From Alphaproteobacteria bacterium (GTDB lineage: Bacteria > Pseudomonadota > Alphaproteobacteria > JAJTHO01 > CANGYM01): 64,000 nucleotides of DNA. The translations under genes were made by a program, and so were the position numbers. Shown here piece by piece: positions 11,034 through 53,405 of the stretch. The stretch covers positions 105,104 through 169,103 of the forward strand of contig JBILMD010000002.1 in NCBI GenBank assembly GCA_044375675.1, read 5' to 3'. The notes below the pieces were generated by a model. The model worked only from the letters and a program-made list of their open reading frames with translations, made no database searches and was not told the origin of the DNA. Position 1 is the stretch's first letter, and each line of letters starts with the position of its first letter.

Positions 11034-11633
11034 ATGGCTTTGTCTGTTCCCTTGTCCGATGATGTTTTGGATCATCTGTTTTACAAAGCCCGCTCTCTCG
11101 TGGACTGGCAAGACAAACCTGTGTCTTTGGAAACGCTGAAAACCCTGTATGATTTGGTGAAAATGGGCCCCACCAGTGCCAACAGTTGCCCCCTGCGGAT
11201 TCTGTTTTTAACCACAGAGGCGGCGAAACAGCGGTTGTTGCCCCACCTGCACGAAGGCAACGTTCACCAGACAAAAACCGCCCCTGTTGTGGCCTTGCTG
11301 GCCAATGATATGGATTTTCCCCAGCATTTCCCCGCCCTGTTTCCCGTGGCCCAAGCATGGTTTCAGGGCAATGCCCCTTTGATTGAGGAAACGGCCATGC
11401 GCAATGCCTCCATGCAGGGGGGGTATTTCATTATGGCGGCCCGCGCTCTGGGACTGGACTGCGGCCCCATTTCGGGGTTTGATGCCGAGGGTGTGAACCG
11501 TGACTTTTTTTCCGAAACTCCCTACACGTCTTGGAAAATCAATTTTTTATGCAACATCGGCTACGGCGATGCCCGCACACTCAAGCCCCGCTTGCCAAGG
11601 CTGCCGTTTGAAACGGCGTGCCTTGTGGTGTAG
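11034..11633 (+). CDS. Nitroreductase-family protein (RutE/malonic semialdehyde reductase-like)
   Basis: 199 aa with the RutE-like N-terminus (LDHLFYKARSLVDW...LKTLYDLVKMGPTSANSCP). Confidence 0.7.
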   Translation: MALSVPLSDDVLDHLFYKARSLVDWQDKPVSLETLKTLYDLVKMGPTSANSCPLRILFLTTEAAKQRLLPHLHEGNVHQTKTAPVVALLANDMDFPQHFPALFPVAQAWFQGNAPLIEETAMRNASMQGGYFIMAARALGLDCGPISGFDAEGVNRDFFSETPYTSWKINFLCNIGYGDARTLKPRLPRLPFETACLVV

Positions 11634-11721
11634 GGGGGTGTGGCCTTGGTCTTGGTTATTTCCCTTTTAATATTTTTATTGTATTGTTTAGCATTGAGTA
11701 AAAAAATCGGAAAATATCCCT

Positions 11722-12036
11722 ATGATCATCACAAACCTTGAATATGTGCCTAACCGAGACATCATTGAACATTATGGCTTAGTGAACGGCAGTTCTGTGC
11801 GTTCAAAGCACGTTGGGCGAGATTTGATTGCAGATTTTAAAAATATGTTTGGCGGTGAACTTAGGGGTTATACAGAGTTGTTGGAAGAAACACGCCAAGA
11901 AGCCTTAGAGCGTATGAGAAAACAGGCTGAAAATGTAGGTGCGAATGCCATTTTAAATGTGCGTCTTTCAACATCGTCTGTGGCATCCGGTGCAGCGGAA
12001 ATTTATGTATATGGGACAGCGGTAAGGATTGCATAG
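11722..12036 (+). CDS. YbjQ/UPF0145 (DUF74) family protein, soluble paralogue
   Basis: 104-aa protein with the YbjQ-family pattern (GLV...R...IADFKNMFGGE..YTELLEETRQEALERMRKQAENVGANAILNVRL). First gene of a low-GC island. Confidence 0.75.
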   Translation: MIITNLEYVPNRDIIEHYGLVNGSSVRSKHVGRDLIADFKNMFGGELRGYTELLEETRQEALERMRKQAENVGANAILNVRLSTSSVASGAAEIYVYGTAVRIA

Positions 12037-12499
12037 TATGGTCGATATAATGCTTGAGCATCTCGATTGGGTCGTTGGGGGCGCTTTACTGATTTTTACC
12101 GCTTTTTCTGGGAAAATCCTTGAAAATAAGCATTTCAAGGATTTGCTGGAAAGAGAAGCTGTTGCCCCAAAAATTCCCCTTGTGAATACGAAAGAAAAAA
12201 ACCTTTCCTTTGCATCTAATACACGCGCCGAGTTGGTGATTGGTAGCGTGGTGTTATCCTCTGATTTTTTCCGCTCTACTCTTGCCAGTTTCGTGGATAT
12301 TTTTGGAGGTCGTGTAGGAGTGTTAGAGAATTTAATGGATAGAGGCCGCCGAGAAGCCCTTCTTCGTGTACAAGAAAAAGCACGGGGCGCATCCCACCTC
12401 TTAAACGTGCGTTATACAACGGCAACATTAACTGATCCGAATAGAGGAGGTGTTCCTAAGGTTGAGGTTGTTGTTTATGCAACAGCCGTATACCCCTAA
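12029..12499 (+). CDS. YbjQ/UPF0145-like domain protein with N-terminal transmembrane anchor
   Basis: N-terminal hydrophobic helix (WVVGGALLIFTAF) followed by a second YbjQ-like domain (FVDIFGGRVGVLENL...EALLRVQEKARGASHLLNVRY). Overlaps the upstream gene by 8 nt, suggesting translational coupling. Confidence 0.6.
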   Translation: MHSMVDIMLEHLDWVVGGALLIFTAFSGKILENKHFKDLLEREAVAPKIPLVNTKEKNLSFASNTRAELVIGSVVLSSDFFRSTLASFVDIFGGRVGVLENLMDRGRREALLRVQEKARGASHLLNVRYTTATLTDPNRGGVPKVEVVVYATAVYP

Positions 12500-12517
12500 A
12501 GTACTCCTCTTGAAGCC

Positions 12518-13294
12518 ATGAAGTTTAAACATAAAACGTTTGATCATCAGGTTAATCATAGCACTGAACGTGAATGGGTAATTTTTGTCAGGGGGGGGCT
12601 GGGGTTAATCATTCTTGTGGTTATCACGTTAATCACCATCACATTGATTGTCCATCTTGGTGTGCAACATTTACCTAACTCAGTTGAAAGCTTTATATGG
12701 CGCCATTTGCAAACAATGGATTTTCAGGAATCTCCTATCGCAACCGAATCGTATCCGGTTGTACAGCGTGTTTTCGCTTCTTTGCCTAAACCAGATATAC
12801 CGCCTTATCTCACGCTAAAAGTTGCAGTGATGAAGGAAATAGACAGCAATGCCTTTGCTTATCCTAATGGTACCATTGTGATTTTTGAGGGATTGCTAAA
12901 GACAATAAAAAGTGAAAATGCTCTTGCTTTTGTGCTCGCCCATGAAGTGGGGCATTATGCACATCGGGATCATTTTAAGACGATGCTTGAATTGGGCCTT
13001 TATAGCATTTTAAGCTCTATAGTCGACGGTATGATGACTATCCCCAGCACGGCAGTGCAGGCACGTTTCTCCCAAAATACAGAAACTGCAGCCGATCTGT
13101 ACGCACTTGACGTGCTTTATAAGCGGTATGGTCATGTGGGCGGTGCAACCGAATTTTTTTCGACCATTCACCATAACGATTTCGAGGGGCTTGCGCTGTT
13201 TGCATCACATCCTTTAAGCAAAAAACGGATCGAAGTCTTGCGTGCGCGTATCAAAGAGAAACAGTTCCCTGAAAAGGCGACGATTCTCTTATAG
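12518..13294 (+). CDS. M48-family zinc metallopeptidase (membrane)
   Basis: HEVGH zinc-binding motif (VLAHEVGHYAHRDH) and N-terminal TM segment. Low GC. Contains a G8 homopolymer at 12591-12598. Confidence 0.75.
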   Translation: MKFKHKTFDHQVNHSTEREWVIFVRGGLGLIILVVITLITITLIVHLGVQHLPNSVESFIWRHLQTMDFQESPIATESYPVVQRVFASLPKPDIPPYLTLKVAVMKEIDSNAFAYPNGTIVIFEGLLKTIKSENALAFVLAHEVGHYAHRDHFKTMLELGLYSILSSIVDGMMTIPSTAVQARFSQNTETAADLYALDVLYKRYGHVGGATEFFSTIHHNDFEGLALFASHPLSKKRIEVLRARIKEKQFPEKATILL

Positions 13295-13320
13295 GGTGTA
13301 TGTCTTCTCCACAGGGAATC

Positions 13321-14298
13321 CTAACCCGCCTCATGATGGCGCAGCAGTTCGGCTTTGCGTAGGGTGTTGTGGTCTGTGGTCAGGCGGCGGACGGTTCCTG
13401 TTTTGGATCGCATGATGATGGAATGGGTTCTGACGCCGCCGGCAATACGCTTAACACCCGTCAGCAGGGGGCCATCGGTGACCCCTGTGGCGGCAAACAT
13501 CACATCATCGCTGGGCACCAGATCACGCAGGCTGTACACACGATCAAAATCCTTAACCCCCCACCGCAGGGCGCGTTGTTTTTCATCGTCATTGCGAAAC
13601 AAAAGGCGGCCTTGGATGGTGCCCCCTAAACAGGACAGGGCGGCGGCGGCCAAAACCCCCTCAGGCGCACCCCCTGTGCCTATGTAAACGTCGATGGAGC
13701 TTTCGGGTTGCGCCGTGGCAATCACCGCGCTGACATCCCCATCCTGAATCAGGATGATGCGGCATCCCAGCGCCCGAACTTGGGCGATTTGCTCGGCATG
13801 GCGGGGGCGATTCAGCAGACACACCACCAAATCTTGGAGGGGAACGCCCTTGGCATCCGCCACGTTGTTCAGGTTGGTGGCGAGGCTGTTTTTCAAAGAC
13901 AAAGCCTCGGCCGGCACATCGGGGCCTGCGGCCAATTTTTCCATATACACATCCGGCGCCGCCAAAAAGCCCCCCTGGGGCGCCAGCGCAATGACGGTCA
14001 TGGCGTTAAAATTGCCCTGGGCGGTTAGGGTTGTGCCCTCCAGCGGATCCAGCGCAATGTCCACGGATGTGCCGCCCAAGCCCACCTTTTCCCCGATATA
14101 CAGCATGGGGGCTTCGTCGCGTTCGCCTTCCCCGATGACCACCGTGCCATCAATGGGCATGGTGTTCAGGGCGGCGCGCATGGCCGCCACGGCGGCAGCA
14201 TCAGCGGCCTTTTCATCCCCGCGGCCAATCCATCTGGCGGAGGCTAAGGCGGCGTACTCTGTGGCCCTGACGGGCTCGAGGGTTAAAAAACGATCCAT
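13321..14298 (-). CDS. glpX: Fructose-1,6-bisphosphatase class II
   Basis: 325 aa with GlpX-type motifs (IGEGERDEAPMLYIGE, DPLEGTT, GTGGAPEGV). Confidence 0.9.
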   Translation of the reverse strand: MDRFLTLEPVRATEYAALASARWIGRGDEKAADAAAVAAMRAALNTMPIDGTVVIGEGERDEAPMLYIGEKVGLGGTSVDIALDPLEGTTLTAQGNFNAMTVIALAPQGGFLAAPDVYMEKLAAGPDVPAEALSLKNSLATNLNNVADAKGVPLQDLVVCLLNRPRHAEQIAQVRALGCRIILIQDGDVSAVIATAQPESSIDVYIGTGGAPEGVLAAAALSCLGGTIQGRLLFRNDDEKQRALRWGVKDFDRVYSLRDLVPSDDVMFAATGVTDGPLLTGVKRIAGGVRTHSIIMRSKTGTVRRLTTDHNTLRKAELLRHHEAG

Positions 14299-16199: not shown

Positions 16200-16267
16200 A
16201 TCTTAGGGCCAGAACCCTATCAGATTTGTTTGGGTTTGCAACCGTCTAAAAAGGGCAGTGTTTTTTT

Positions 16268-16837
16268 TTAAGACACCAACGTGCAGCGTCCCACGAGGGG
16301 GGCGGAGGTTTGGCGTTTGACTTGGGTGCCCACCGTGGGCTGGCGACCCTGGGCTAGGTCATCAAGCAGGGTGATGACGGTGGTTTCCGTCAGATCCTCA
16401 TAAAAATCATCATTCACTTGCAGGACGGGGGCATTCACACAGGCCCCCAAACATTCCACACGGGACAGGGTGAAGAGGCCATCGGGGGTGGTTTCCCCCA
16501 TGCGGGCGTTCAGGTGTGTGGAAACGGCGTTTTCGATGGTCTCTGCCCCCCTCAGCCAACACGGCGTGGTGCGGCAAAATTGCAGGTGGTAACGCCCAAC
16601 AGGTTTCAGGTTGAACATGGTGTAAAAGGATGCGACCTCATACACCTTAATCTCGGGAACCTCTAGCGTTTCAGACAAAAACCGCAAAACCGGCGGGGAC
16701 AACCACCCCCCATTCTGGCGCTGGGCCAAATCCAAAAATGGCAGCAGGGCACTTTGTTTGCGATTGGCAGGATAGCGGGACAAAATCACACGGGCCGTTT
16801 CTGCATTGTCGGGCGTAAAACAAAAAGAATCCGTCAT
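16268..16837 (-). CDS. nuoE: NADH-quinone oxidoreductase subunit E-like [2Fe-2S] thioredoxin-fold protein, stand-alone
   Basis: Four Cys in NuoE spacing (QFCRTTPCWLRG...VECLGACVNAP). No nuoD or nuoF adjacent. Confidence 0.75.
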   Translation of the reverse strand: MTDSFCFTPDNAETARVILSRYPANRKQSALLPFLDLAQRQNGGWLSPPVLRFLSETLEVPEIKVYEVASFYTMFNLKPVGRYHLQFCRTTPCWLRGAETIENAVSTHLNARMGETTPDGLFTLSRVECLGACVNAPVLQVNDDFYEDLTETTVITLLDDLAQGRQPTVGTQVKRQTSAPLVGRCTLVS

Positions 16838-20345: not shown

Positions 20346-20420
20346 GGGCGTATAGCTCAGGGGTAGAGCGCTACGTTGACATCGTAGAGGTCCGTGGTTC
20401 GAGACCACGTACGCCCACCA
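20346..20420 (+). tRNA. tRNA-Val (anticodon GAC), CCA encoded
   Basis: Cloverleaf with acceptor GGGCGTA/TACGCCC, anticodon stem-loop CTACG-TTGACAT-CGTAG, T-arm GGTTCGAGACC and 3' CCA. Confidence 0.9.
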
Positions 20421-33395: not shown

Positions 33396-33801
<406 letters not shown>

Positions 33802-46861: not shown

Positions 46862-47371
46862 CTAAAACGGGATTTCGTCATCAAGCTCTTTTTCCAAATG
46901 GACCGCAGGGGCGGAGGACCGCGTTTCGGGGCTGTCATAATACAAAGCCCCGTCACCCGGGCCGGCCAGAGAGGATCCCCCCTCGTACCCACTGCCGCCG
47001 CGGGCGCCGCCGCCGTCGGATTTGGTATCCAGCAGGGTCAGCTCGCCTTTAAAGCGGGAAATGACAATTTCTGTTGTGTATTTTTCAACGTTGCTTTGGT
47101 CGGTCCATTTGCGGGTTTGCAGTTGGCCCTCGATAAAAATGCGGCTGCCTTTTTTGACATAGCGCTCGGCGATATCCGCCAGTTTGTCGTTAAAAATCAC
47201 CACGCGGTGCCATTCGGTGCGGTCTTTGCGCTCCCCCGATTGTTTGTCGCGCCATGTTTCGGATGTGGCCAAGGTAAGCGTCGCCAATTTGGTCCCATCC
47301 TGGGAGGTGCGAATTTCAGGGTCTTTGCCCACGTTGCCAATCAGCATGACTTTGTTTAAACTTCCGGCCAT
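46862..47371 (-). CDS. ssb: Single-stranded DNA-binding protein
   Basis: OB-fold N-terminus (NKVMLIGNVGKDPEIR), Gly-rich linker and acidic C-terminal tip DDEIPF. Confidence 0.95.
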   Translation of the reverse strand: MAGSLNKVMLIGNVGKDPEIRTSQDGTKLATLTLATSETWRDKQSGERKDRTEWHRVVIFNDKLADIAERYVKKGSRIFIEGQLQTRKWTDQSNVEKYTTEIVISRFKGELTLLDTKSDGGGARGGSGYEGGSSLAGPGDGALYYDSPETRSSAPAVHLEKELDDEIPF

Positions 47372-47457
47372 AAAAGAATCCCCATCACTGTGTTGTCATC
47401 AATCAAAAACCGAATCATAATCCCCGCAGGGGTTGGAGGCAATAAAAAATAGAGGGT

Positions 47458-47560
47458 GACTTGCGCACAACCTTTGTCATTGCGAGCGCAGCGAAGCAAT
47501 CCAGACATGCCGCCACGGGAAAGACTGGATTGCCACGCCTCCTGCGGAGGCTCGCAATGT
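47458..47560. repeat. Structured repeat family A (copy 2)
   Basis: ~97% identical to 24281-24400 over about 100 bp, with the same nested inverted repeats. Confidence 0.65.
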
Positions 47561-47579
47561 GCGTAAGTCTTAAAACCTT

Positions 47580-47846
47580 TTAAGCATCAGAGGCGAGAAT
47601 CTCTGACAGGATTTCAGGGGTTAGGCCGCGCTGGGCTGCTTTTTCGGCAAGGTCATGGCGCAAAGACAGGAAATTTTGGGATTTTAACGCCTGCCACTGG
47701 GCAAAATCTTGCATGGAAATGACGGCCACGCAATCGCGCTTGTGCCGCTTGATAATCACAGGCGCATGCTGGGCCCGATCCAAAAGAGCCCCAAAATGGT
47801 TTTGCGCGTCTCGAGAGGACATAATGTCAGTCATGATGAACATCAC
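47580..47846 (-). CDS. Phd/YefM-family type II antitoxin, orphan (no adjacent toxin ORF)
   Basis: NHFGALLDRAQHAPVIIKRHKRDCVAVISMQDF matches the Phd/YefM fold pattern. The start codon is ambiguous (GTG/ATG options). Confidence 0.65.
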   Translation of the reverse strand: MMFIMTDIMSSRDAQNHFGALLDRAQHAPVIIKRHKRDCVAVISMQDFAQWQALKSQNFLSLRHDLAEKAAQRGLTPEILSEILASDA

Positions 47847-48057
47847 AGTCTATGGGATGATTGGTTATAAGTGTAGCGATAATAGAGATTTTTGTCAAGA
47901 TTTTGATCCCAAAACATCACTTCCCCCCAAAAAAATTTTTTGGGTTTGGCGGGAAAATGTGATATTTGTTATAGTTGTGAAAAGTGAGATTTGTTATATT
48001 TTTTCTCTAAAATAACTTAAGAAGCCAAAGCATTCTAGAAAAGGTTTTTATACGTTT

Positions 48058-51000
48058 ATGGCGAATCATCCTATTTTTTCTGATGAAAAGAAAGATCTCT
48101 TTGTTTATTTGTTAGATAAACAAAGAGAAGTTGCCGGAGATGAGCAAGAGGATTTTCAGACAGCCTTGGCTATTTATCAGGGAACCTTTGAGGGCCAGAG
48201 AGAGGGTGCACACAATCCTGTTTTAAATCCTAAAGTGGCCAAATATTTACTAACGATTATTGAAATCGAAAGGATTGCGGGAGAGGTTTCCACCTTTCGT
48301 TATAAAGAGGATAATAGATCAGAGAGCGTGACACCTGTTGAGGGTACCCCTAGATTTTTGATAAAAAATATGAGGGATGCTGGTGTACCTTATAAGGAAG
48401 CTTTGGAAATTCTTGCGACCATTCAAGATCACCCTGTTTTAACAGCCCACCCGACCAATACCCTTGATTCACAACGGCTTATTGTTCATCAAAACTATAA
48501 AAACGACCTTGTAAGGCTGGACCCCCGCACAAATCCCGAGGCCATAGATAACATAGTCATAGGGTATTTAACATCTTTGAATGGACAGCGTTTGGTTGCA
48601 GATAATAAGAGTGTTGAAGAAGAGGTTCGAGATGCACTAACGCATGCTGGAAACCGTTGGGAAGGCATAGAATTTATTTATGGAGCCTTTGAAAAAGCTT
48701 TGAAGGAATATTATCCGGCAGAGTATCGTGACGGAGATCTTAAGCTCAATTTAAAGATCAGTTCTTGGGTCGGTGGCGATAAAGATGGCAATAAATCGAT
48801 TGATGAACAAACAACAAGGAAGACTATCCTTGCCCATGATGCTGAGGCTCGTCTTAAATTTACAGCAGCGATAGATCGTATCGCCGGAGATTTGACACTA
48901 AAGACATCCGGTGATGATCCTTTTCTGAAGCGTATCATGGATATTGTGCGTGATGATAAGCAGCCCGATGAGGGTCGGGATCTCAATCTTATGGATGTTG
49001 CGCCTATCCAAGAAGCTTTGGCATCTATGTTGGAAGATCTTTCCTATCAGTTTGCCAACAATTCCATCAGGCTTTTTCAACGTCAAATCGATTGTTTTGG
49101 GGGGACTGCAGGGAAACTGGAATATCGTGAAAATAGTGTACTATTAATGGAAGCCTTGGACGTTTTGCTGAAAGAATCCGTCCCTGGTTATGAAGCATAC
49201 GAAACTCCAGCAGACAAAGAAGAGCTTTATACCCAAATTTTGATGGGGGAACGTCCTGATATCAATTTAAATCATCACCTAAGAGTTCAGTTAAAAAAGC
49301 TGGAGGATAAAAAGGCTAGGGGAGAGAGTCTAGAAAAGAAGGAAAATGCCTTTGTGACGACCTTTGGTCGTTTTGAATTGGCCTTGTTGAATCCAGAAAT
49401 TATTGAAAATCATGTTATTGCTGAGGCCACAGACAATTTTCAAATCTTAGGGGTCGAAGTTATAAAAAAGGCAGTGTCCCAAAAATTAAACGATGAAGGA
49501 AAGACATCAACGCCACATTCTTTGCGGTTAACGCCCCTTTATGAAAGCCCAGAGGATATGGCCGCTATACCAGCAAGAATGGATGCACTTTTGGATAATC
49601 CTGCTTATCAGGATAGTTTAGAAGGGCAAAGAGTCCATTTTGGCTTTAAAAAGCTCTTTCAAGCGATTAAGGTGGCCATGAGCGATACCATGCGCCGTGG
49701 AAGCTTAGTGGGGGCTCGCATTGCTATACATCGGGCCATCAAGAAAACCCAAGAGGTCATGGTCAAATGCGGTGTCAGTCCACAGATCGATTTTGGGGGT
49801 AGTCAAACAGACCCGATGCGTGATGGCGGAAGAGCCATGGGATTCAAAGTCAAGTTGTACAAATTGTTATCGCATGGGTTAAAATATACATCGCAAGGAA
49901 TTGATCTGGTTCATTTTATGGGTGGTCCAGCAACAGGTCCTTTTTGCTTGGCCAATCTTGTGGCTTTGGGGCAGGGGCTTTTTAAAGACCGCTACACCCC
50001 AGAAAATCCCCCTTTGTCTCGTCTTAGCGATCAAGTTGACGATATTCTTTATGAGGCTTTGCCGGATATTGTTAAAAATTATGAAGACACCTTTTTTAAC
50101 GATCCCTTAACAAACGAGTTGCTTGAGGCACTTGATTATAATGGTATCACAACAGCTGGCAATTCATCGAGTCGTGCAAAAGGCCGCAGTGATAAGATTC
50201 GTATTCAAGATGTGCGCTCGATTAGCTTAACGGAAACTTTTCAACATAGTCAACTTGTTCCTGGGTACTTGGGATGTTCGGTGTTGAAAAGAAATATTTA
50301 TGAAAAAATAAACACTATTTTGGATGATTCAGCCAATCAGACAGAGTTGGCCAAATGCCTGCGTGTGATTGCATCCAATCATAATCATAGCAAAGATGAG
50401 GCGTTTTATAGCGCTGCTCTTAATTTTATGTTTAACCGTAGCCCTTTAATGAGGGATACTATGGATCGAGTTGGGCATTCTGTTGCTTGTACAAATTTTG
50501 AAACAGTTTGGAAAAGTCTTTTTAATGAACCTTTGCCTGCAGAGGAAAAGATTAATGCGCTAAAAGGGGAAAATTCGCTTCGGGGGCATCTGGTTCGGAT
50601 TATGCAGGACTATAGAGCAGGGGCTGCCGTATCCTATGCTGCTCAATCAGGCGAACCCCTTCAAGAAGTTTCCATTATAAGTACAGAAAAAAAGCTAGAA
50701 ACAATGTACCCTCATTTTCAAGGTTATTTTGTGGCAAATGATAATGTGTTTCCTTTTTTGGTTGAGGCACGAAAAACATTTGAAGAATTACGACAATCTG
50801 AAAATCAGGGCTCTTCACAGTCAAAGTTAACTGAAGAGAGGGTCGTTCATGCTATCGGTGATGGTTTGATTTTTTCGAACCCAGATGCAGCGAAATACCT
50901 ACTTTCTTGGGCTAATTTTTTAGCGGATCATCCGGAAATACAAGATCAAATCCAAAATAACGTCGGCAAAGCTAAAGAAATTTTAGTAGAGGCAGGTTTA

Positions 51001-51072
51001 ACAGACCATCAAAGCGGACATGAATGGTATAATACCATTTCAAAGTTTCTTAGAGTGGGGCGCACTGTTTAA
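48058..51072 (+). CDS. Divergent phosphoenolpyruvate carboxylase (PEPC)-like protein, 1004 aa, in a low-GC island
   Basis: PEPC N-terminal motifs sit at the expected spacing (VLTAHPT at ~aa 128; SWVGGDKDGN at ~aa 237). Later motifs are degenerate: GGSQTDPMRDGG where GYSDSxKDxG is expected, LVHFMGGPATGPF where FHGRGGxxGRGGxP is expected, and C-terminus RVGRTV rather than MRNTG. GC is about 36-40%, against a ~53% flank. Confidence 0.8.
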   Translation: MANHPIFSDEKKDLFVYLLDKQREVAGDEQEDFQTALAIYQGTFEGQREGAHNPVLNPKVAKYLLTIIEIERIAGEVSTFRYKEDNRSESVTPVEGTPRFLIKNMRDAGVPYKEALEILATIQDHPVLTAHPTNTLDSQRLIVHQNYKNDLVRLDPRTNPEAIDNIVIGYLTSLNGQRLVADNKSVEEEVRDALTHAGNRWEGIEFIYGAFEKALKEYYPAEYRDGDLKLNLKISSWVGGDKDGNKSIDEQTTRKTILAHDAEARLKFTAAIDRIAGDLTLKTSGDDPFLKRIMDIVRDDKQPDEGRDLNLMDVAPIQEALASMLEDLSYQFANNSIRLFQRQIDCFGGTAGKLEYRENSVLLMEALDVLLKESVPGYEAYETPADKEELYTQILMGERPDINLNHHLRVQLKKLEDKKARGESLEKKENAFVTTFGRFELALLNPEIIENHVIAEATDNFQILGVEVIKKAVSQKLNDEGKTSTPHSLRLTPLYESPEDMAAIPARMDALLDNPAYQDSLEGQRVHFGFKKLFQAIKVAMSDTMRRGSLVGARIAIHRAIKKTQEVMVKCGVSPQIDFGGSQTDPMRDGGRAMGFKVKLYKLLSHGLKYTSQGIDLVHFMGGPATGPFCLANLVALGQGLFKDRYTPENPPLSRLSDQVDDILYEALPDIVKNYEDTFFNDPLTNELLEALDYNGITTAGNSSSRAKGRSDKIRIQDVRSISLTETFQHSQLVPGYLGCSVLKRNIYEKINTILDDSANQTELAKCLRVIASNHNHSKDEAFYSAALNFMFNRSPLMRDTMDRVGHSVACTNFETVWKSLFNEPLPAEEKINALKGENSLRGHLVRIMQDYRAGAAVSYAAQSGEPLQEVSIISTEKKLETMYPHFQGYFVANDNVFPFLVEARKTFEELRQSENQGSSQSKLTEERVVHAIGDGLIFSNPDAAKYLLSWANFLADHPEIQDQIQNNVGKAKEILVEAGLTDHQSGHEWYNTISKFLRVGRTV

Positions 51073-51074
51073 CC

Positions 51075-53405
51075 CTACCTCCACAACCCCCGCAACCCCT
51101 CAAGAAGTTCCTTCTTATTCACCGGCGGAACTGGCTGTTGTTGTTCAGAGGGCGGCTGGGGGGTTAAACTCTTAACCCCCCGCACCTCAAACCGCCCATC
51201 CTTCAGCGGGATTAGGGCCTTGGCGCAGATGTCGTCGTTGGCGGGCAGAGGATTGGCGGGCAGTTTGCCTTTGTTTTGAATCAGGGACAACACGGTGTTT
51301 GTCAGGGTTTCCACCCCTTGCTTGCCCAAAGAGGCGCGGGGCGCATCCAAAGGTCCCGTAACCGATACCGGCACCGCCAAGGTCGCCAGCAGGGGGTCTT
51401 TGGGCGTGGGGGTTAAGGTCATGGCCACGGTGCTGGAGCCCAGAGTGATGGTGCCCGTTCCCCATACCTGCACGGCGGGGCTTTCCAGCAGCGTCACGGG
51501 GGTGGTGGCCACACCCTGAACAAAGGGCCACTTTGTGGCAATGCAAGAGAGGGGCAGCGTTTTTTGATCCCCCAGCAAAGCCCGCGCCAAATCACCGGAC
51601 ACAAAGGAGGAAAGCAGGGCTTCGCTTTGAACCGTGGCCGGCCCCATGCCCAAGGTGACATCCCCAGAAAGGGTGGCCAGCACCGTCTGAGGGGTGTGGC
51701 CGGTGCCCTGGACATTGGCCAAAAGGTGACTGCCCCCCCCCTGCATCGCAGAGGTCAGGCCGGTTGTTTTCAGCAAGGCCCCCACATTGGGATGGGTGAC
51801 ATTCAGCAGCATGGCCAAGGTTGCCTTGGGTGGGGTTGTGGGTTTGGGGCCCTGCGGCTGCGGCGTTAAAGAGGCCGAAAAGGTCATCCCCCCATCCTGA
51901 TAAAAACGCCCCCGACCCTCCATGGCCAAGGCGTCCTGTTGGGTGGCGCGTAGGGTGACTTGGGTCAACAGATCCCCTGCCTCTGCCGTTTCCCGAACAT
52001 GATCCAGACTGACCGTGATCACACCGCGCAGACCAGACCACGGGGTGGGATACAGGGTGATCTGCCGCCAAGAGGCGAGGGCAGGCTTGGGTGTTGGGGC
52101 GGGGGCGTCGTTTTGCGCGGCATTTTCAGACAACGCCGATGCCCCAGAGGGCGCAGCAGGGGCAGGGGCCGGTGTTTGCAGATCCGCCAACACCACCAGA
52201 GGGCTGCGTATATCCGCCTGCACCAACGTGGGGACGGCGGCCCCCTGTGGCCAGCGCAGGGTCCCGTCGCTTTCAACCGTCGTGGCGGTGCCCAGTGTGC
52301 CTTTCACTTTGCCCCACGTGATGACGTCACCTTTTTTCTGAAGGCGGCCTTTGACAGACAGGGGCTTTTGCAACAAAGGCACCTGAAATCGTGTGGCCAG
52401 ATCGGCAGATCCCGAAGACACCACCTGAATGGCCCCATCAAAGGATCCCTCTTTCAAACGGTACGTGCCGTTGCTGGTGACGGTGGCCCCCAGGCTGGTG
52501 ATCTCCCCTTGCGTCCATGTCACGGATTCCGGCGTATACAAAATCCCCATTTTCATGGTCATGGGCGGCAGATCCGGCGACGGAAACGCCTTGGGCCAAG
52601 CGGATGCGTTCAGGCTCAGGGTGCCCTCGGCTTTGCTGAGTGCCCCCAGATGTTTTGTGATGATGCCCGCGGCCGTAAATCCCACATCGGCCAGTGTGCC
52701 TTTCAGGGTGAGGGGGCTTTGTCCCGTGGGGGATAACAGGGCCAGACTGTCTTGAATCGTCCCCGAAAGACTCAGCGGGGTTTGGCGCAATCCCCCTGTC
52801 AGAGAGAAACGGTGCCCTTTGGTCTGGCCCTCTAGGGTCAGGTTGGCAATGTCCAGCGTTTCCTGTGTCGTTGTGTTGGTCCGTTGATCGGTGAAAAGAA
52901 TAACGCTGTCCCGAATGGACAGATTGCGGATCACCAGATGGGGGGCTGCGGGGGGTTTTGCAGAGGATGCGGGGGCTTGGGCATCGGTATTTGGGGTCTG
53001 TTGCGGGGCAGGGGGGGAGAGTGTCCAGTTGGTGTTGCCTTTGGGATCAATGGTCAGGCGCACAGTCATGCCGCCCACATCCAGCCCATCAACGACCACA
53101 TCCCCAAAAATTAAAGGAAGAAAGGCAATGTTCAGGTCGATTGTTTTGGCCTGCACCATCGGGCCGGTGGTGTCAAAGGGGGCATTGCTCAGGCTTATGC
53201 CATTCAGGCTCAGGCGTGGGGACAGTCCCCAATGAATGGCCATGTCGCCGTTTATGGTCAGGGTGCGTCCGGTGGCTTTTTGGACCTGCGCCACAATTTG
53301 ATCGCGCATATAGGGGGCTTTGATCACATCGTTTATGCTGTAAAGCCCGATGCCAAGCAGGACAACAATCCCGAGCAATGCCCATGCCAAAACCCGTAAA
53401 ACCAT
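51075..53405 (-). CDS. AsmA-family outer-membrane biogenesis protein
   Basis: N-terminal TM anchor followed by an AsmA N-domain (YMRDQIVAQVQKATGRTLTINGDM), a long Thr/Gly/Ala-rich beta-rich body and the AsmA C-terminus. Confidence 0.75.
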   Translation of the reverse strand: MVLRVLAWALLGIVVLLGIGLYSINDVIKAPYMRDQIVAQVQKATGRTLTINGDMAIHWGLSPRLSLNGISLSNAPFDTTGPMVQAKTIDLNIAFLPLIFGDVVVDGLDVGGMTVRLTIDPKGNTNWTLSPPAPQQTPNTDAQAPASSAKPPAAPHLVIRNLSIRDSVILFTDQRTNTTTQETLDIANLTLEGQTKGHRFSLTGGLRQTPLSLSGTIQDSLALLSPTGQSPLTLKGTLADVGFTAAGIITKHLGALSKAEGTLSLNASAWPKAFPSPDLPPMTMKMGILYTPESVTWTQGEITSLGATVTSNGTYRLKEGSFDGAIQVVSSGSADLATRFQVPLLQKPLSVKGRLQKKGDVITWGKVKGTLGTATTVESDGTLRWPQGAAVPTLVQADIRSPLVVLADLQTPAPAPAAPSGASALSENAAQNDAPAPTPKPALASWRQITLYPTPWSGLRGVITVSLDHVRETAEAGDLLTQVTLRATQQDALAMEGRGRFYQDGGMTFSASLTPQPQGPKPTTPPKATLAMLLNVTHPNVGALLKTTGLTSAMQGGGSHLLANVQGTGHTPQTVLATLSGDVTLGMGPATVQSEALLSSFVSGDLARALLGDQKTLPLSCIATKWPFVQGVATTPVTLLESPAVQVWGTGTITLGSSTVAMTLTPTPKDPLLATLAVPVSVTGPLDAPRASLGKQGVETLTNTVLSLIQNKGKLPANPLPANDDICAKALIPLKDGRFEVRGVKSLTPQPPSEQQQPVPPVNKKELLEGLRGLWR

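What the first reader, a model, noticed from the sequence alone, without database searches (positions are those of the whole stretch)
11640..13310. Low-GC three-gene module: soluble YbjQ, membrane-anchored YbjQ and a membrane M48 metallopeptidase
Three co-directional genes form an AT-rich segment (~38-43% GC) wedged between converging core genes (rutE-like and glpX), with its own AT-rich upstream region. The first two overlap by 8 nt, and the third starts 19 nt after the second. Two paralogous YbjQ (DUF74/UPF0145) domains, one soluble and one with an N-terminal TM helix, are paired with an HExxH membrane peptidase. This looks like a co-inherited functional unit, perhaps membrane stress, metal sensing or defence-related, rather than a chance adjacency. 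To my knowledge this triplet has not been described as a system.
Basis: inference. Interest (0 to 1): 0.6.

Follow-up and report, generated by a model that had tools for sequence, protein, structure and literature searches.

The report
Conserved YbjQ–YbjQ–M48 protease membrane operon
The three genes are a real, self-contained operon found in the same order in at least ten bacterial phyla. It pairs a poorly understood protein family (YbjQ) with a membrane-anchored protease, appears undescribed, and in this genome is a recently acquired cassette in a strain-variable slot that carries an anti-phage system in sister strains.

Summary
Three + strand genes (11722-12036, 12038-12499, 12518-13294) encode a soluble YbjQ, a YbjQ with an N-terminal membrane helix, and a single-pass M48 zinc peptidase. 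They form a 42.7% GC cassette in a 52% GC window.

The interpretation as a co-inherited unit is strongly supported.
- Seeded from the peptidase, 75 of 75 assessable loci (one per GTDB species) carry the same ordered triplet.
- Seeded from the anchored YbjQ in metagenomes, 75 of 75 have the soluble YbjQ upstream and 62 of 67 the peptidase downstream.
- Natural YbjQ-M48 fusions exist, and no fourth gene is conserved.

Topology evidence places both YbjQ domains in the cytoplasm and the catalytic domain in the periplasm.

In other genomes the triplet matches host GC and is syntenic within genera. Here it is a foreign cassette with sharp boundaries. Sister strains at 97-98% flank identity carry AbiL or orphan genes in the same slot.

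My best reading is a membrane-spanning complex in which a tethered cytoplasmic YbjQ ring scaffolds or gates a periplasmic BepA/LoiP-like protease. The biological role is unproven; envelope proteostasis is favoured, with phage defence as a rival. I found no description of the triplet in the searchable literature or in PADLOC.

The parts
11646..13319 (+). Whole strain-variable cassette: upstream spacer plus three genes. It is foreign by composition.
   Evidence: blastn against sister-strain contigs loses homology at window 11637-11645 and regains it at 13320, with flanks 97-98% identical. GC is 42.7% against 52.2% for the window.
11646..11721 (+). AT-rich upstream spacer (26% GC), the presumed promoter and 5' UTR of the operon.
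   Evidence: No consensus sigma-70 hit was found here and no Rfam family. In homologues the median distance to the upstream gene is 150 nt and that gene's orientation is random, which implies the triplet has its own promoter.
11722..12036 (+). Y1: soluble YbjQ/UPF0145 protein, 104 aa, predicted cytoplasmic.
   Evidence: PF01906 match over 1-103 of 103 positions, E 2.4e-36. No TM segment in 78 of 78 family members. PDB relatives 2GTC, 1VR4 and 1Y2I each hold five chains. Mean pairwise identity across phyla is 73%.
12038..12499 (+). Y2: membrane-anchored YbjQ, 153 aa, with the alternative TTG start at 12029. It has an N-out TM helix, a juxtamembrane helix carrying invariant G/E/H, and a cytoplasmic YbjQ domain.
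   Evidence: PF01906 E 3.6e-12. AlphaFold2 gives helix 2-42 followed by a YbjQ fold, pLDDT 85.8. Best Foldseek matches are 1VR4, 1Y2I and 3QKB. K+R count is 0.01 on the N side against 4.47 on the C side of the TM, in 68 of 68 sequences. Variants carry a signal peptide and a periplasmic domain ahead of this TM. Invariant residues are listed.
12518..13294 (+). M48 zinc metallopeptidase, 258 aa: a conserved 24-aa N-tail, one TM, and a BepA/LoiP/3C37-like catalytic domain predicted to be periplasmic.
   Evidence: PF01435 E 2.2e-25. H142, E143, H146, E189, H231 and P232 are invariant in 74 homologues. AlphaFold2 pLDDT is 85.1. The family profile matches 3C37 at E 4e-40 and BepA at 5e-21.
11034..11633 (+). 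Left core flank: RutE-type malonic semialdehyde reductase (nitroreductase family). Not part of the module.
   Evidence: NCBIfam NF003768, 261.9 bits against a cut-off of 152. Present next to the slot in all sister strains whatever the cargo.
13321..14298 (-). Right core flank: glpX class II fructose-1,6-bisphosphatase. Not part of the module.
   Evidence: TIGR00330, 358 bits. The identical protein is found in strains with different cargo.

Best explanation
The module is a self-contained operon encoding a three-protein inner-membrane complex.

Shown:
- The three genes are inherited together across phyla.
- The peptidase keeps all its M48 catalytic residues.
- The cassette is foreign in this genome and sits in a slot whose cargo varies between strains.

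Strongly inferred:
- Y2 spans the membrane once, N-terminus out, and holds its YbjQ domain under the membrane on a long rigid helix.
- Y1 is cytoplasmic.
- The peptidase has a short conserved cytoplasmic tail, one TM helix and a periplasmic catalytic domain of the BepA/LoiP type.

Inferred mechanism:
- Y1 and Y2 assemble into a YbjQ ring. Solved YbjQ proteins crystallise with five chains, so this could be a mixed pentamer or stacked pentamers, tethered to the membrane by the Y2 helices.
- The peptidase docks to the ring through its conserved N-tail (NxNxS...PL.EF) and through TM-TM packing.
- The ring either clusters several protease domains on the periplasmic face or gates them in response to a cytoplasmic cue.
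- The protease then cuts envelope proteins, as its closest relatives do.

The favoured role is envelope or membrane protein quality control under stress. In the window organism the module is an accessory gene set, recently acquired by recombination into a hotspot between rutE-like and glpX.
For: Unit conservation:
- 75 of 75 assessable GTDB-species loci seeded from the M48 carry Y1-Y2-M48 in the same order and strand.
- Seeded from Y2 in metagenomes, Y1 lies upstream in 75 of 75 and the M48 downstream in 62 of 67.
- Gene gaps have a median of about 6 nt (Y1-Y2) and 0 nt (Y2-M48), with many 4-nt overlaps.
- Pairwise-identity matrices correlate at r 0.81-0.88, and 0 of 500 permutations reach that.
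- No fourth gene is conserved.

Physical link:
- Natural Y2-M48 fusions exist (P0185, P0291). P0185 sits directly after a Y1 gene.
- The association survives rearrangement: in L103 the M48 lies convergent to the YbjQ pair.

Topology:
- Y2 follows the positive-inside rule in 68 of 68 sequences.
- Y2 variants have a signal peptide and periplasmic domain ahead of the TM.
- M48 net charge favours N-in in 60 of 78 sequences.
- The fusion architecture TM-YbjQ-tail-TM-M48 forces the catalytic domain to the side opposite the YbjQ domain.
- Two M48 positions covary perfectly: Cys/Cys in 53, a single Cys in 0, neither in 25. The alternative pairs W/A, S/K-R and D/N also covary. This indicates a contact pair that is a disulfide in 68% of members.
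- The nearest relatives are BepA and LoiP, which are known from the literature to act in the periplasm.

Active enzyme: HExxH, E189 and H231-P232 are invariant.

Ring:
- All YbjQ PDB entries hold five chains.
- Single polypeptides with five or four tandem YbjQ domains exist.

Resident, housekeeping-like behaviour elsewhere:
- Triplet GC equals flank GC in 74 loci, median difference +1.9 points.
- Synteny is kept within genera and families.
- Nearest neighbours are mostly housekeeping genes.
- No copies were found in plasmid, phage or IMG/VR collections.
Against: - No direct evidence exists for any physical contact, stoichiometry, ligand or substrate. Multimer modelling was not available.
- M48 orientation from charge alone is only moderate: 49 sequences against 17 by K+R count.
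- The window's own M48 lacks the Cys pair (D93/K202), so the disulfide argument is by family rather than for this copy.
- No sigma-32 or sigma-E promoter enrichment lies upstream, so there is no regulatory support for a stress role.
- 5 of 67 Y1-Y2 pairs lack an adjacent M48, so the YbjQ pair may have a function of its own.
- In this species the cassette alternates with AbiL in a hotspot, which fits an accessory or defence role better than housekeeping.
Confidence: 0.5

Rival explanations
1. Anti-phage (abortive-infection-type) system. The cytoplasmic YbjQ assembly senses infection and activates the periplasmic protease, or a membrane lesion, to kill or arrest the cell.
For: - In strains with the identical glpX protein and 97-98% identical flanks, the same slot holds AbiLi+AbiLii (PADLOC E 1.6e-89 and 5e-26), orphan ORFs or this triplet.
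- All cargos in the slot are low-GC foreign DNA.
- A relative at 64% identity sits next to a Gp49/HTH_37 (HigBA-like) pair at a different locus.
- One broad-sample locus adjoins Septu-like genes and two adjoin DUF1848.
- The unit is compact, self-contained and patchily distributed.
Against: - Y1 and Y2 have no PADLOC hit. The M48 has only a weak capP match around HExxH, 21.9 bits.
- In 74 species-level loci only about 3-4 of 143 nearest neighbours look defence-related.
- The triplet is compositionally native in those loci and syntenic across species of a genus or family, which is unusual for fast-turnover defence genes.
- It is absent from plasmids, phages and viral contigs.
- Hotspots also carry non-defence cargo.
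Confidence: 0.17
2. Metal sensing or homeostasis module. The YbjQ ring binds a heavy metal or zinc, as the Pfam name suggests, and controls or supplies the zinc protease.
For: - Pfam calls PF01906 'putative heavy-metal-binding'.
- Invariant E and H lie at the Y2 membrane interface.
- Occasional neighbours include a GDT1 cation antiporter, ArsP and three CusB/HlyD-type proteins.
Against: - The metal-binding label is a structure-based guess. No experiment was found in the literature searched.
- No metal transporter, metalloregulator or resistance gene recurs next to the triplet.
- Y1 has almost no Cys (mean 0.19 per protein).
Confidence: 0.1
3. All three domains are cytoplasmic. The M48 faces inward like HtpX and processes or is inhibited by the YbjQ proteins directly.
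For: - Charge bias of the M48 TM flanks is modest, and 17 of 78 sequences favour the opposite orientation.
- A moderately hydrophobic helix follows HExxH (KD 1.2-1.5), as in HtpX.
- Co-localisation on one side would give the simplest regulator-enzyme contact.
Against: - Fusion proteins keep a TM between the YbjQ domain and the M48.
- The perfectly covarying Cys pair points to an oxidising compartment.
- Sequence and fold are nearest to BepA, LoiP and 3C37 rather than HtpX (NCBIfam HtpX 28.7 bits against a cut-off of 341).
- The post-HExxH hydrophobic helix is also present in soluble BepA-type enzymes (my own knowledge of the BepA sequence).
Confidence: 0.1
4. Chance adjacency of unrelated genes in an AT-rich patch.
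For: None beyond the fact that both families are common.
Against: The order is identical in 75 of 75 and 62 of 67 independent loci across many phyla, fusions exist, and divergence is correlated.
Confidence: 0.01

Closest known systems
BepA (YfgC), LoiP (YggG) and the Geobacter M48 peptidase of PDB 3C37: periplasmic M48 envelope proteases
   Same: - Same catalytic fold and motifs: HExxH, a downstream QE..AD glutamate, and a C-terminal HP.
- These are the best sequence and structure matches: family profile against 3C37 E 4e-40, BepA 5e-21; Foldseek probability 1.0.
- The predicted location is also periplasmic.
   Different: - It lacks the TPR domain of BepA and the lipoprotein signal of LoiP.
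- It is anchored by an N-terminal TM helix with a conserved cytoplasmic tail.
- It scores far below the NCBIfam cut-offs: LoiP 58.8 against 365, BepA 40.6 against 570.
- It is obligately encoded with two YbjQ proteins, which none of these relatives is known to have.
OMA1, the mitochondrial inner-membrane M48 stress protease
   Same: M48 domain on the trans side of an energised membrane. A short N-terminal segment on the cis (matrix/cytoplasm) side that could act as a regulatory element. This comparison rests on my own knowledge of OMA1 and was not tested.
   Different: No specific sequence relationship was examined. OMA1 has no YbjQ partners.
HtpX, the inner-membrane M48 quality-control protease
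   Same: Membrane-anchored M48 zinc protease of the inner membrane.
   Different: HtpX has four TM segments and a cytoplasm-facing active site. This protein has one strong TM, a predicted periplasmic domain, and an HtpX model score of 28.7 bits against a cut-off of 341.
Ring-scaffold plus membrane-protease pairs (HflK/C-FtsH; SPFH/stomatin-NfeD operons)
   Same: Operon logic: oligomeric ring-forming proteins, including paralogous pairs, are co-encoded with a membrane protease and thought to organise or restrain it. This is an analogy from established knowledge.
   Different: The folds are unrelated (YbjQ versus SPFH; M48 versus AAA+/S49). Here the scaffold and the catalytic domain are predicted to lie on opposite sides of the membrane.
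Stand-alone YbjQ/UPF0145 proteins (E. coli YbjQ; PDB 1VR4, 2GTC, 1Y2I)
   Same: Y1 is a full-length canonical YbjQ domain (124.9 bits). Y2 has the same fold (TM-score 0.71 against 1VR4, normalised to the target).
   Different: Stand-alone YbjQ has no known partner or function. In the triplet the family appears as a soluble plus membrane-tethered pair. Y1 is unusually conserved, at 73% mean identity across phyla.

Membership tests
YbjQ_1 / UPF0145 (PF01906) | Sequence match to the family model above the curated cut-off | tested here: met
   g1 scores 124.9 bits and g2 47.3 bits against a cut-off of 23. The NCBIfam equivalog models are not reached (106.6 against 181), so neither protein is an orthologue of a named subfamily.
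YbjQ_1 / UPF0145 (PF01906) | YbjQ fold (beta-alpha-alpha-beta-beta domain as in 1VR4 and 1Y2I) | tested here: met
   The AlphaFold2 model of g2 has pLDDT 85.8. Its best Foldseek hits are 1VR4, 1Y2I and 3QKB at probability 1.0. g1 matches 2GTC and 1VR4 by sequence at E 3e-15.
YbjQ_1 / UPF0145 (PF01906) | Pentameric ring assembly | not testable with these tools
   Indirect evidence only. The PDB entries each hold five chains, and one polypeptide carries five tandem YbjQ domains.
YbjQ_1 / UPF0145 (PF01906) | Heavy-metal binding, the family's nominal function | not testable with these tools
   No experiment was found in the literature searched.
Peptidase family M48 | Pfam match above the cut-off, plus HExxH and a downstream Glu as zinc ligands | tested here: met
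   90 bits against a cut-off of 20.3. H142, E143, H146 and E189 are invariant in 74 homologues.
Peptidase family M48 | M48 catalytic fold | tested here: met
   AlphaFold2 pLDDT 85.1. Foldseek finds 3C37 at E 2.7e-7 and BepA at 1.4e-5, both at probability 1.0.
BepA (NF052400) / LoiP (NF052399) / HtpX equivalogs | Score above the equivalog cut-off, plus the characteristic architecture (TPR domain; lipobox; four TM segments) | tested here: not met
   Scores are 40.6 against 570, 58.8 against 365 and 28.7 against 341. The protein has a single N-terminal TM, no TPR domain and no lipobox.
Known anti-phage defence systems (PADLOC-DB v2) | Component proteins match defence-system models | tested here: not met
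   Y1 and Y2 have no hits at E up to 1. The M48 has only capP at 21.9 bits over about 50 profile positions.
Known anti-phage defence systems (PADLOC-DB v2) | Preferential location in defence islands or hotspots | tested here: inconclusive
   In this species the triplet shares a hotspot with AbiL. Across 74 other species about 3-4 of 143 nearest neighbours are defence-like, and the triplet is compositionally native and syntenic.
Conserved gene cluster (operon-level unit) | Same gene content and order in phylogenetically distant genomes with unrelated flanks | tested here: met
   Complete in 75 of 75 assessable loci seeded from the M48. Seeded from Y2, Y1 is present in 75 of 75 and the M48 in 62 of 67. 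The largest shared flank-gene cluster covers only 9 of 74 loci.

The most novel reading that the evidence does not exclude
The triplet is a previously unrecognised kind of trans-membrane device. A cytoplasmic YbjQ ring acts as the sensor for an intracellular cue, which could be a phage component, an ion or a metabolite. The ring transmits the signal through its membrane tether and the protease's cytoplasmic tail, switching on proteolysis in the periplasm. In accessory contexts such as this hotspot it would serve as an abortive-infection or stress-suicide system. This would also give the first function to the YbjQ/UPF0145 fold, which has had solved structures but no known role since 2005.
Probability: 0.15. 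Interest if true: 0.85.

Novelty: new variant of a known kind. Interest (0 to 1): 0.6.

Why it matters
YbjQ/UPF0145 is widespread and includes an E. coli y-gene. Its crystal structures are two decades old, yet I found no assigned function for it.

A near-obligate genetic partnership across at least ten phyla now gives a concrete, testable hypothesis for the family. The partners are a soluble YbjQ, a membrane-tethered paralogue and a periplasm-facing M48 protease, and natural fusions link the last two. The partnership also defines a new architectural class of bacterial M48 envelope protease.

The arrangement is unusual because the putative regulator and the catalytic domain are predicted to lie on opposite sides of the membrane. 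That makes it a candidate for inside-out control of periplasmic proteolysis.

Locally, the finding also documents a clean cargo-swapping hotspot between rutE-like and glpX. The slot carries AbiL in sister strains, so the triplet is a reasonable candidate for defence screening.

Tried and rejected
- PADLOC scan of the three proteins gave nothing useful.
- Literature searches found no description. I tried YbjQ+M48, YbjQ/UPF0145/DUF74/PF01906/COG0393, YbjQ+phage, M48+anti-phage, the NCBI product names, and UPF0145 since 2018.
  - The PF01906 mention in a domain co-evolution preprint pairs it with a recombinase domain, not with M48.
  - The 'M48' of the EPEC RptR defence island is described there only as a lone predicted M48-family peptidase beside a type I R-M and DarTG island, with no YbjQ genes. 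I did not compare its sequence.
  - A 'DUF74' hit in an Acidithiobacillia paper was actually DUF742.
- The triplet is not mobile-element cargo. The M48 has no relatives in IMG/VR, PLSDB plasmids or GenBank phages.
- No conserved fourth gene was found.
- Upstream regions of 78 triplets show no enrichment of sigma-32, sigma-E, sigma-54 or sigma-70 consensus promoters over control genes.
- The window's own upstream spacer has no promoter-consensus hit and no convincing terminator. It has no Rfam element.
- The cassette has no flanking direct or inverted repeats, integrase or tRNA. Cargo exchange is therefore best explained by homologous recombination in the core flanks.
- I considered 3C37 as a possible orthologue from a triplet. 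It lacks the family-specific YGHVGG and Cys motifs, and its gene context could not be checked.
- I considered a channel role for a Y2 TM bundle. The TM has no conserved polar residue; the conserved G/E/H lie at the cytoplasmic interface. I did not pursue it.
- The host organism was not identified beyond alphaproteobacterium-like gene content. No GTDB species representative matched the window's peptidase above 44% identity in its best segment.
Full report
**1. What is in the window**

Three co-directional ORFs lie between converging core genes.

| Gene | Coordinates | Length | Domain evidence |
|---|---|---|---|
| g1 | 11722-12036 | 104 aa | Full-length YbjQ_1, E 2.4e-36 |
| g2 | 12038-12499 (ATG) or from TTG 12029 | 153/156 aa | YbjQ_1 over the C-terminal 90 residues, E 3.6e-12 |
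| g3 | 12518-13294 | 258 aa | Peptidase_M48, E 2.2e-25 |

- The flanks are a RutE-type malonic semialdehyde reductase (above the NCBIfam equivalog cut-off) and glpX.
- The ATG at 12038 is the likelier g2 start for three reasons:
  - It has an AAGGA Shine-Dalgarno 8 nt upstream.
  - Public gene calls use it.
  - In homologues the first two genes never overlap.
Either way the genes are tightly packed.
- The cassette is 42.7% GC against 52.2% for the window. Its GC3 is 37-42%, against 56-69% in neighbouring genes.

**2. The triplet is a conserved unit**

- A search with g3 found about 75 full-length homologues at 25-45% identity. The first three contexts I examined all showed YbjQ (104-109 aa), YbjQ (147-159 aa) and M48 (257-280 aa) amid unrelated neighbours.
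- A scan of one genome per GTDB species returned 80 loci. They come from:
  - Nitrospirota and Thermodesulfobacteriota (Desulfosarcina, Desulfobulbus, Electrothrix)
  - Omnitrophota and Planctomycetales
  - Cyanobacteria (Prochloron) and Acidobacteriota (Bryobacterales)
  - Myxococcales
  - Alpha-, Beta- (Massilia, Noviherbaspirillum) and Gammaproteobacteria (Alishewanella, Marithrix, Ketobacter, Microbulbifer)
- After ORF calling and iterative HMM searches, every locus with enough upstream DNA carries the full ordered triplet: 75 of 75. The other five are cut by contig ends.
- Gene gaps are tiny. The Y1-Y2 median is about 6 nt and the Y2-M48 median is 0 nt, with many 4-nt overlaps.
- A reciprocal scan seeded from Y2 in JGI metagenomes gave Y1 upstream in 75 of 75 assessable loci and the M48 downstream on the same strand in 62 of 67. 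The five exceptions have unrelated neighbours.
- No fourth gene is conserved. The largest flank-gene cluster covers 9 of 74 loci, all Desulfosarcina-like.
- Upstream-gene orientation is random, with a median gap of 150 nt, so the triplet has its own promoter.
- Pairwise-identity matrices of the three proteins correlate at r 0.81-0.88, and 0 of 500 permutations reach that.
- Y1 is strikingly conserved: 73% mean identity across phyla, against 52% for Y2 and 40% for the M48.
- A Y2 profile finds 474 clusters (at 50% identity) at E ≤ 1e-30 among 1.84 billion representatives.

**3. Architectural variants that inform mechanism**

Among the Y2-profile hits:

- **Natural Y2-M48 fusions.** P0185 (442 aa) and P0291 (410 aa) are fused. 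P0185 follows a Y1 gene with a 4-nt overlap and was seen on two contigs. Its layout is TM, YbjQ, the M48 N-tail motif (NISNDSPLKEF), TM, M48.
- **Y2 with a periplasmic N-domain.** P0255, P0279 and P0304 have a signal peptide or anchor plus a 60-220 aa extracytoplasmic domain ahead of the TM. P0255 still sits between a Y1 and an M48 gene.
- **Y2 with a C-terminal extension.** Some Y2 proteins carry about four extra TM segments and a C-terminal soluble domain. In L103 this form follows Y1 and faces a convergent M48 of the same type (27% identical to g3).
- **Tandem YbjQ repeats.** Single polypeptides carry five or four YbjQ domains in a row.

**4. Topology**

- Y1 has no hydrophobic segment in 78 of 78 sequences.
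- The Y2 TM starts at residues 1-5. It has essentially no K/R before it and 4.5 K/R in the 15 residues after it, in 68 of 68 sequences. With the periplasmic N-domain variants, this fixes Y2 as N-out with a cytoplasmic YbjQ domain.
- AlphaFold2 (pLDDT 85.8) predicts one continuous helix 2-42, then a YbjQ fold that matches 1VR4, 1Y2I and 3QKB.
- G25, E29 and H32 are invariant or nearly so at the membrane-cytoplasm interface. The DRGRREAL motif is invariant in the domain.
- Four lines of evidence place the M48 N-terminus in the cytoplasm and the catalytic domain in the periplasm:
  - Net charge favours it in 60 of 78 sequences.
  - The fusion architecture requires the catalytic domain to lie opposite the YbjQ domain.
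  - The closest relatives by sequence and fold are BepA, LoiP and 3C37, not HtpX. BepA and LoiP are known from the literature to act in the periplasm.
  - Two catalytic-domain positions (window D93 and K202) are Cys/Cys in 53 sequences, never a single Cys, and non-Cys in 25. The replacement pairs also covary (W/A six times, S/K-R, D/N, M/R-K). This is a contact pair that forms a disulfide in 68% of members.
- The 24-residue N-tail is conserved (N13 ≥ 95%; NxNxS...PL.EF). It is therefore predicted to be cytoplasmic, on the same side as the YbjQ proteins.
- The catalytic residues H142, E143, H146, E189, H231 and P232 are invariant. The AlphaFold2 model has pLDDT 85.1.

**5. Genomic behaviour**

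- Sister-strain contigs carry the identical or near-identical glpX protein but different cargo in the slot between glpX and the nitroreductase:
  - the triplet
  - AbiLi+AbiLii (PADLOC E 1.6e-89 and 5e-26)
  - a 264-aa orphan
  - a 372-aa SLT-domain protein
- Homology to the window ends at 11637-11645, just after the reductase stop, and resumes at 13320, the glpX stop. The flanks are 97-98% identical.
- All cargos are low GC, 33-43%. No repeats, integrase or tRNA flank the cassette.
- A relative at 64% identity lies elsewhere, beside a Gp49/HTH_37 pair. In this lineage the triplet is therefore flexible, recently acquired cargo in a recombination hotspot that also hosts a bona fide defence system.
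- The broad sample behaves differently:
  - The triplet's GC equals that of its flanks (median +1.9 points, none below -2.7).
  - It is syntenic across species within genera or families: 12 Desulfosarcina-like species and 3 Alishewanella species, among others.
  - Its nearest neighbours are mainly housekeeping genes, with about 3-4 of 143 defence-like.
  - It is absent from plasmid, phage and IMG/VR collections.

**6. Interpretation**

- *Shown:* a conserved operon, co-inherited as a unit, encoding an intact M48 protease. It is foreign in this genome.
- *Strongly inferred:* the YbjQ domains are cytoplasmic, and the protease is periplasmic with a cytoplasmic tail.
- *Inferred mechanism:*
  - Y1 and Y2 form a membrane-tethered ring that docks the protease tail and TM.
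  - The ring scaffolds or gates periplasmic proteolysis of envelope proteins.
- The logic is analogous to HflK/C-FtsH or SPFH-NfeD, but the folds are unrelated and the arrangement is trans-membrane.
- I put about 0.5 on this architecture and role. The rivals are a defence function (about 0.17), a metal-related function (about 0.1) and an all-cytoplasmic arrangement (about 0.1).

**7. Novelty**

- No paper in the searchable library holds both YbjQ and M48, and none gives UPF0145 a function.
- PADLOC has no model for the YbjQ proteins. NCBIfam has no model that the three proteins reach.
- The parts belong to known families, so I file the module as a new variant of a known kind: a membrane-anchored M48 envelope protease with a dedicated, previously unrecognised YbjQ partner pair.
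- Its main value is a testable handle on an orphan family.

Noticed in passing
window 16256-16269: There is a second strain-variable slot, between the lipoamide dehydrogenase gene and the 2Fe-2S thioredoxin-like gene. Several sister strains (L090, L094, L095, L097) carry a 421-490 aa ORF there on the opposite strand, with no Pfam or PADLOC hit. The window has nothing at that position.
   Followed up: partly
window 47000-51500 (ORF 48058-51072, +): A second low-GC island (40-46% GC) holds a 1004-aa ORF. It has only a partial, divergent match to PEP carboxylase (PF00311, E 1.5e-35, residues 65-283). A 100-aa ORF with no Pfam match lies upstream of it.
   Followed up: partly
L095:6118-8092 and the equivalent stretches in L091, L092, L093 and L097: Sister strains carry a complete AbiL system (AbiLi AAA_21/AAA_15 ATPase plus AbiLii RloB) in exactly the slot the triplet occupies here. 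This marks the rutE-like | glpX junction as a defence-capable hotspot in this species.
   Followed up: yes
P0249, P0236, P0277, P0289, P0287, P0280; locus L103:3001-4164: A sub-family of anchored YbjQ proteins carries an extra C-terminal module of about four TM segments plus a soluble domain, with no Pfam match. In L103 it follows a Y1 gene and faces a convergent M48 of the same type. This may be an alternative effector architecture.
   Followed up: partly
P0161 (627 aa) and P0199 (460 aa): Single polypeptides carry five and four tandem YbjQ domains. They also weakly match PF23025, the YbjQ-like domain of C2 domain-containing protein 5. This is consistent with a pentameric ring as the functional unit of the fold.
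   Followed up: no
L087:62-759: The relative at 64% identity to the window's triplet sits beside a Gp49/HTH_37 (HigB/HigA-like) toxin-antitoxin pair and der/engA. That is a different locus from the one in the window.
   Followed up: no
window 33398-33800 and 20346-20417: Bacterial RNase P class A RNA (289.6 bits) and one tRNA are the only Rfam matches above the gathering score in the window.
   Followed up: no
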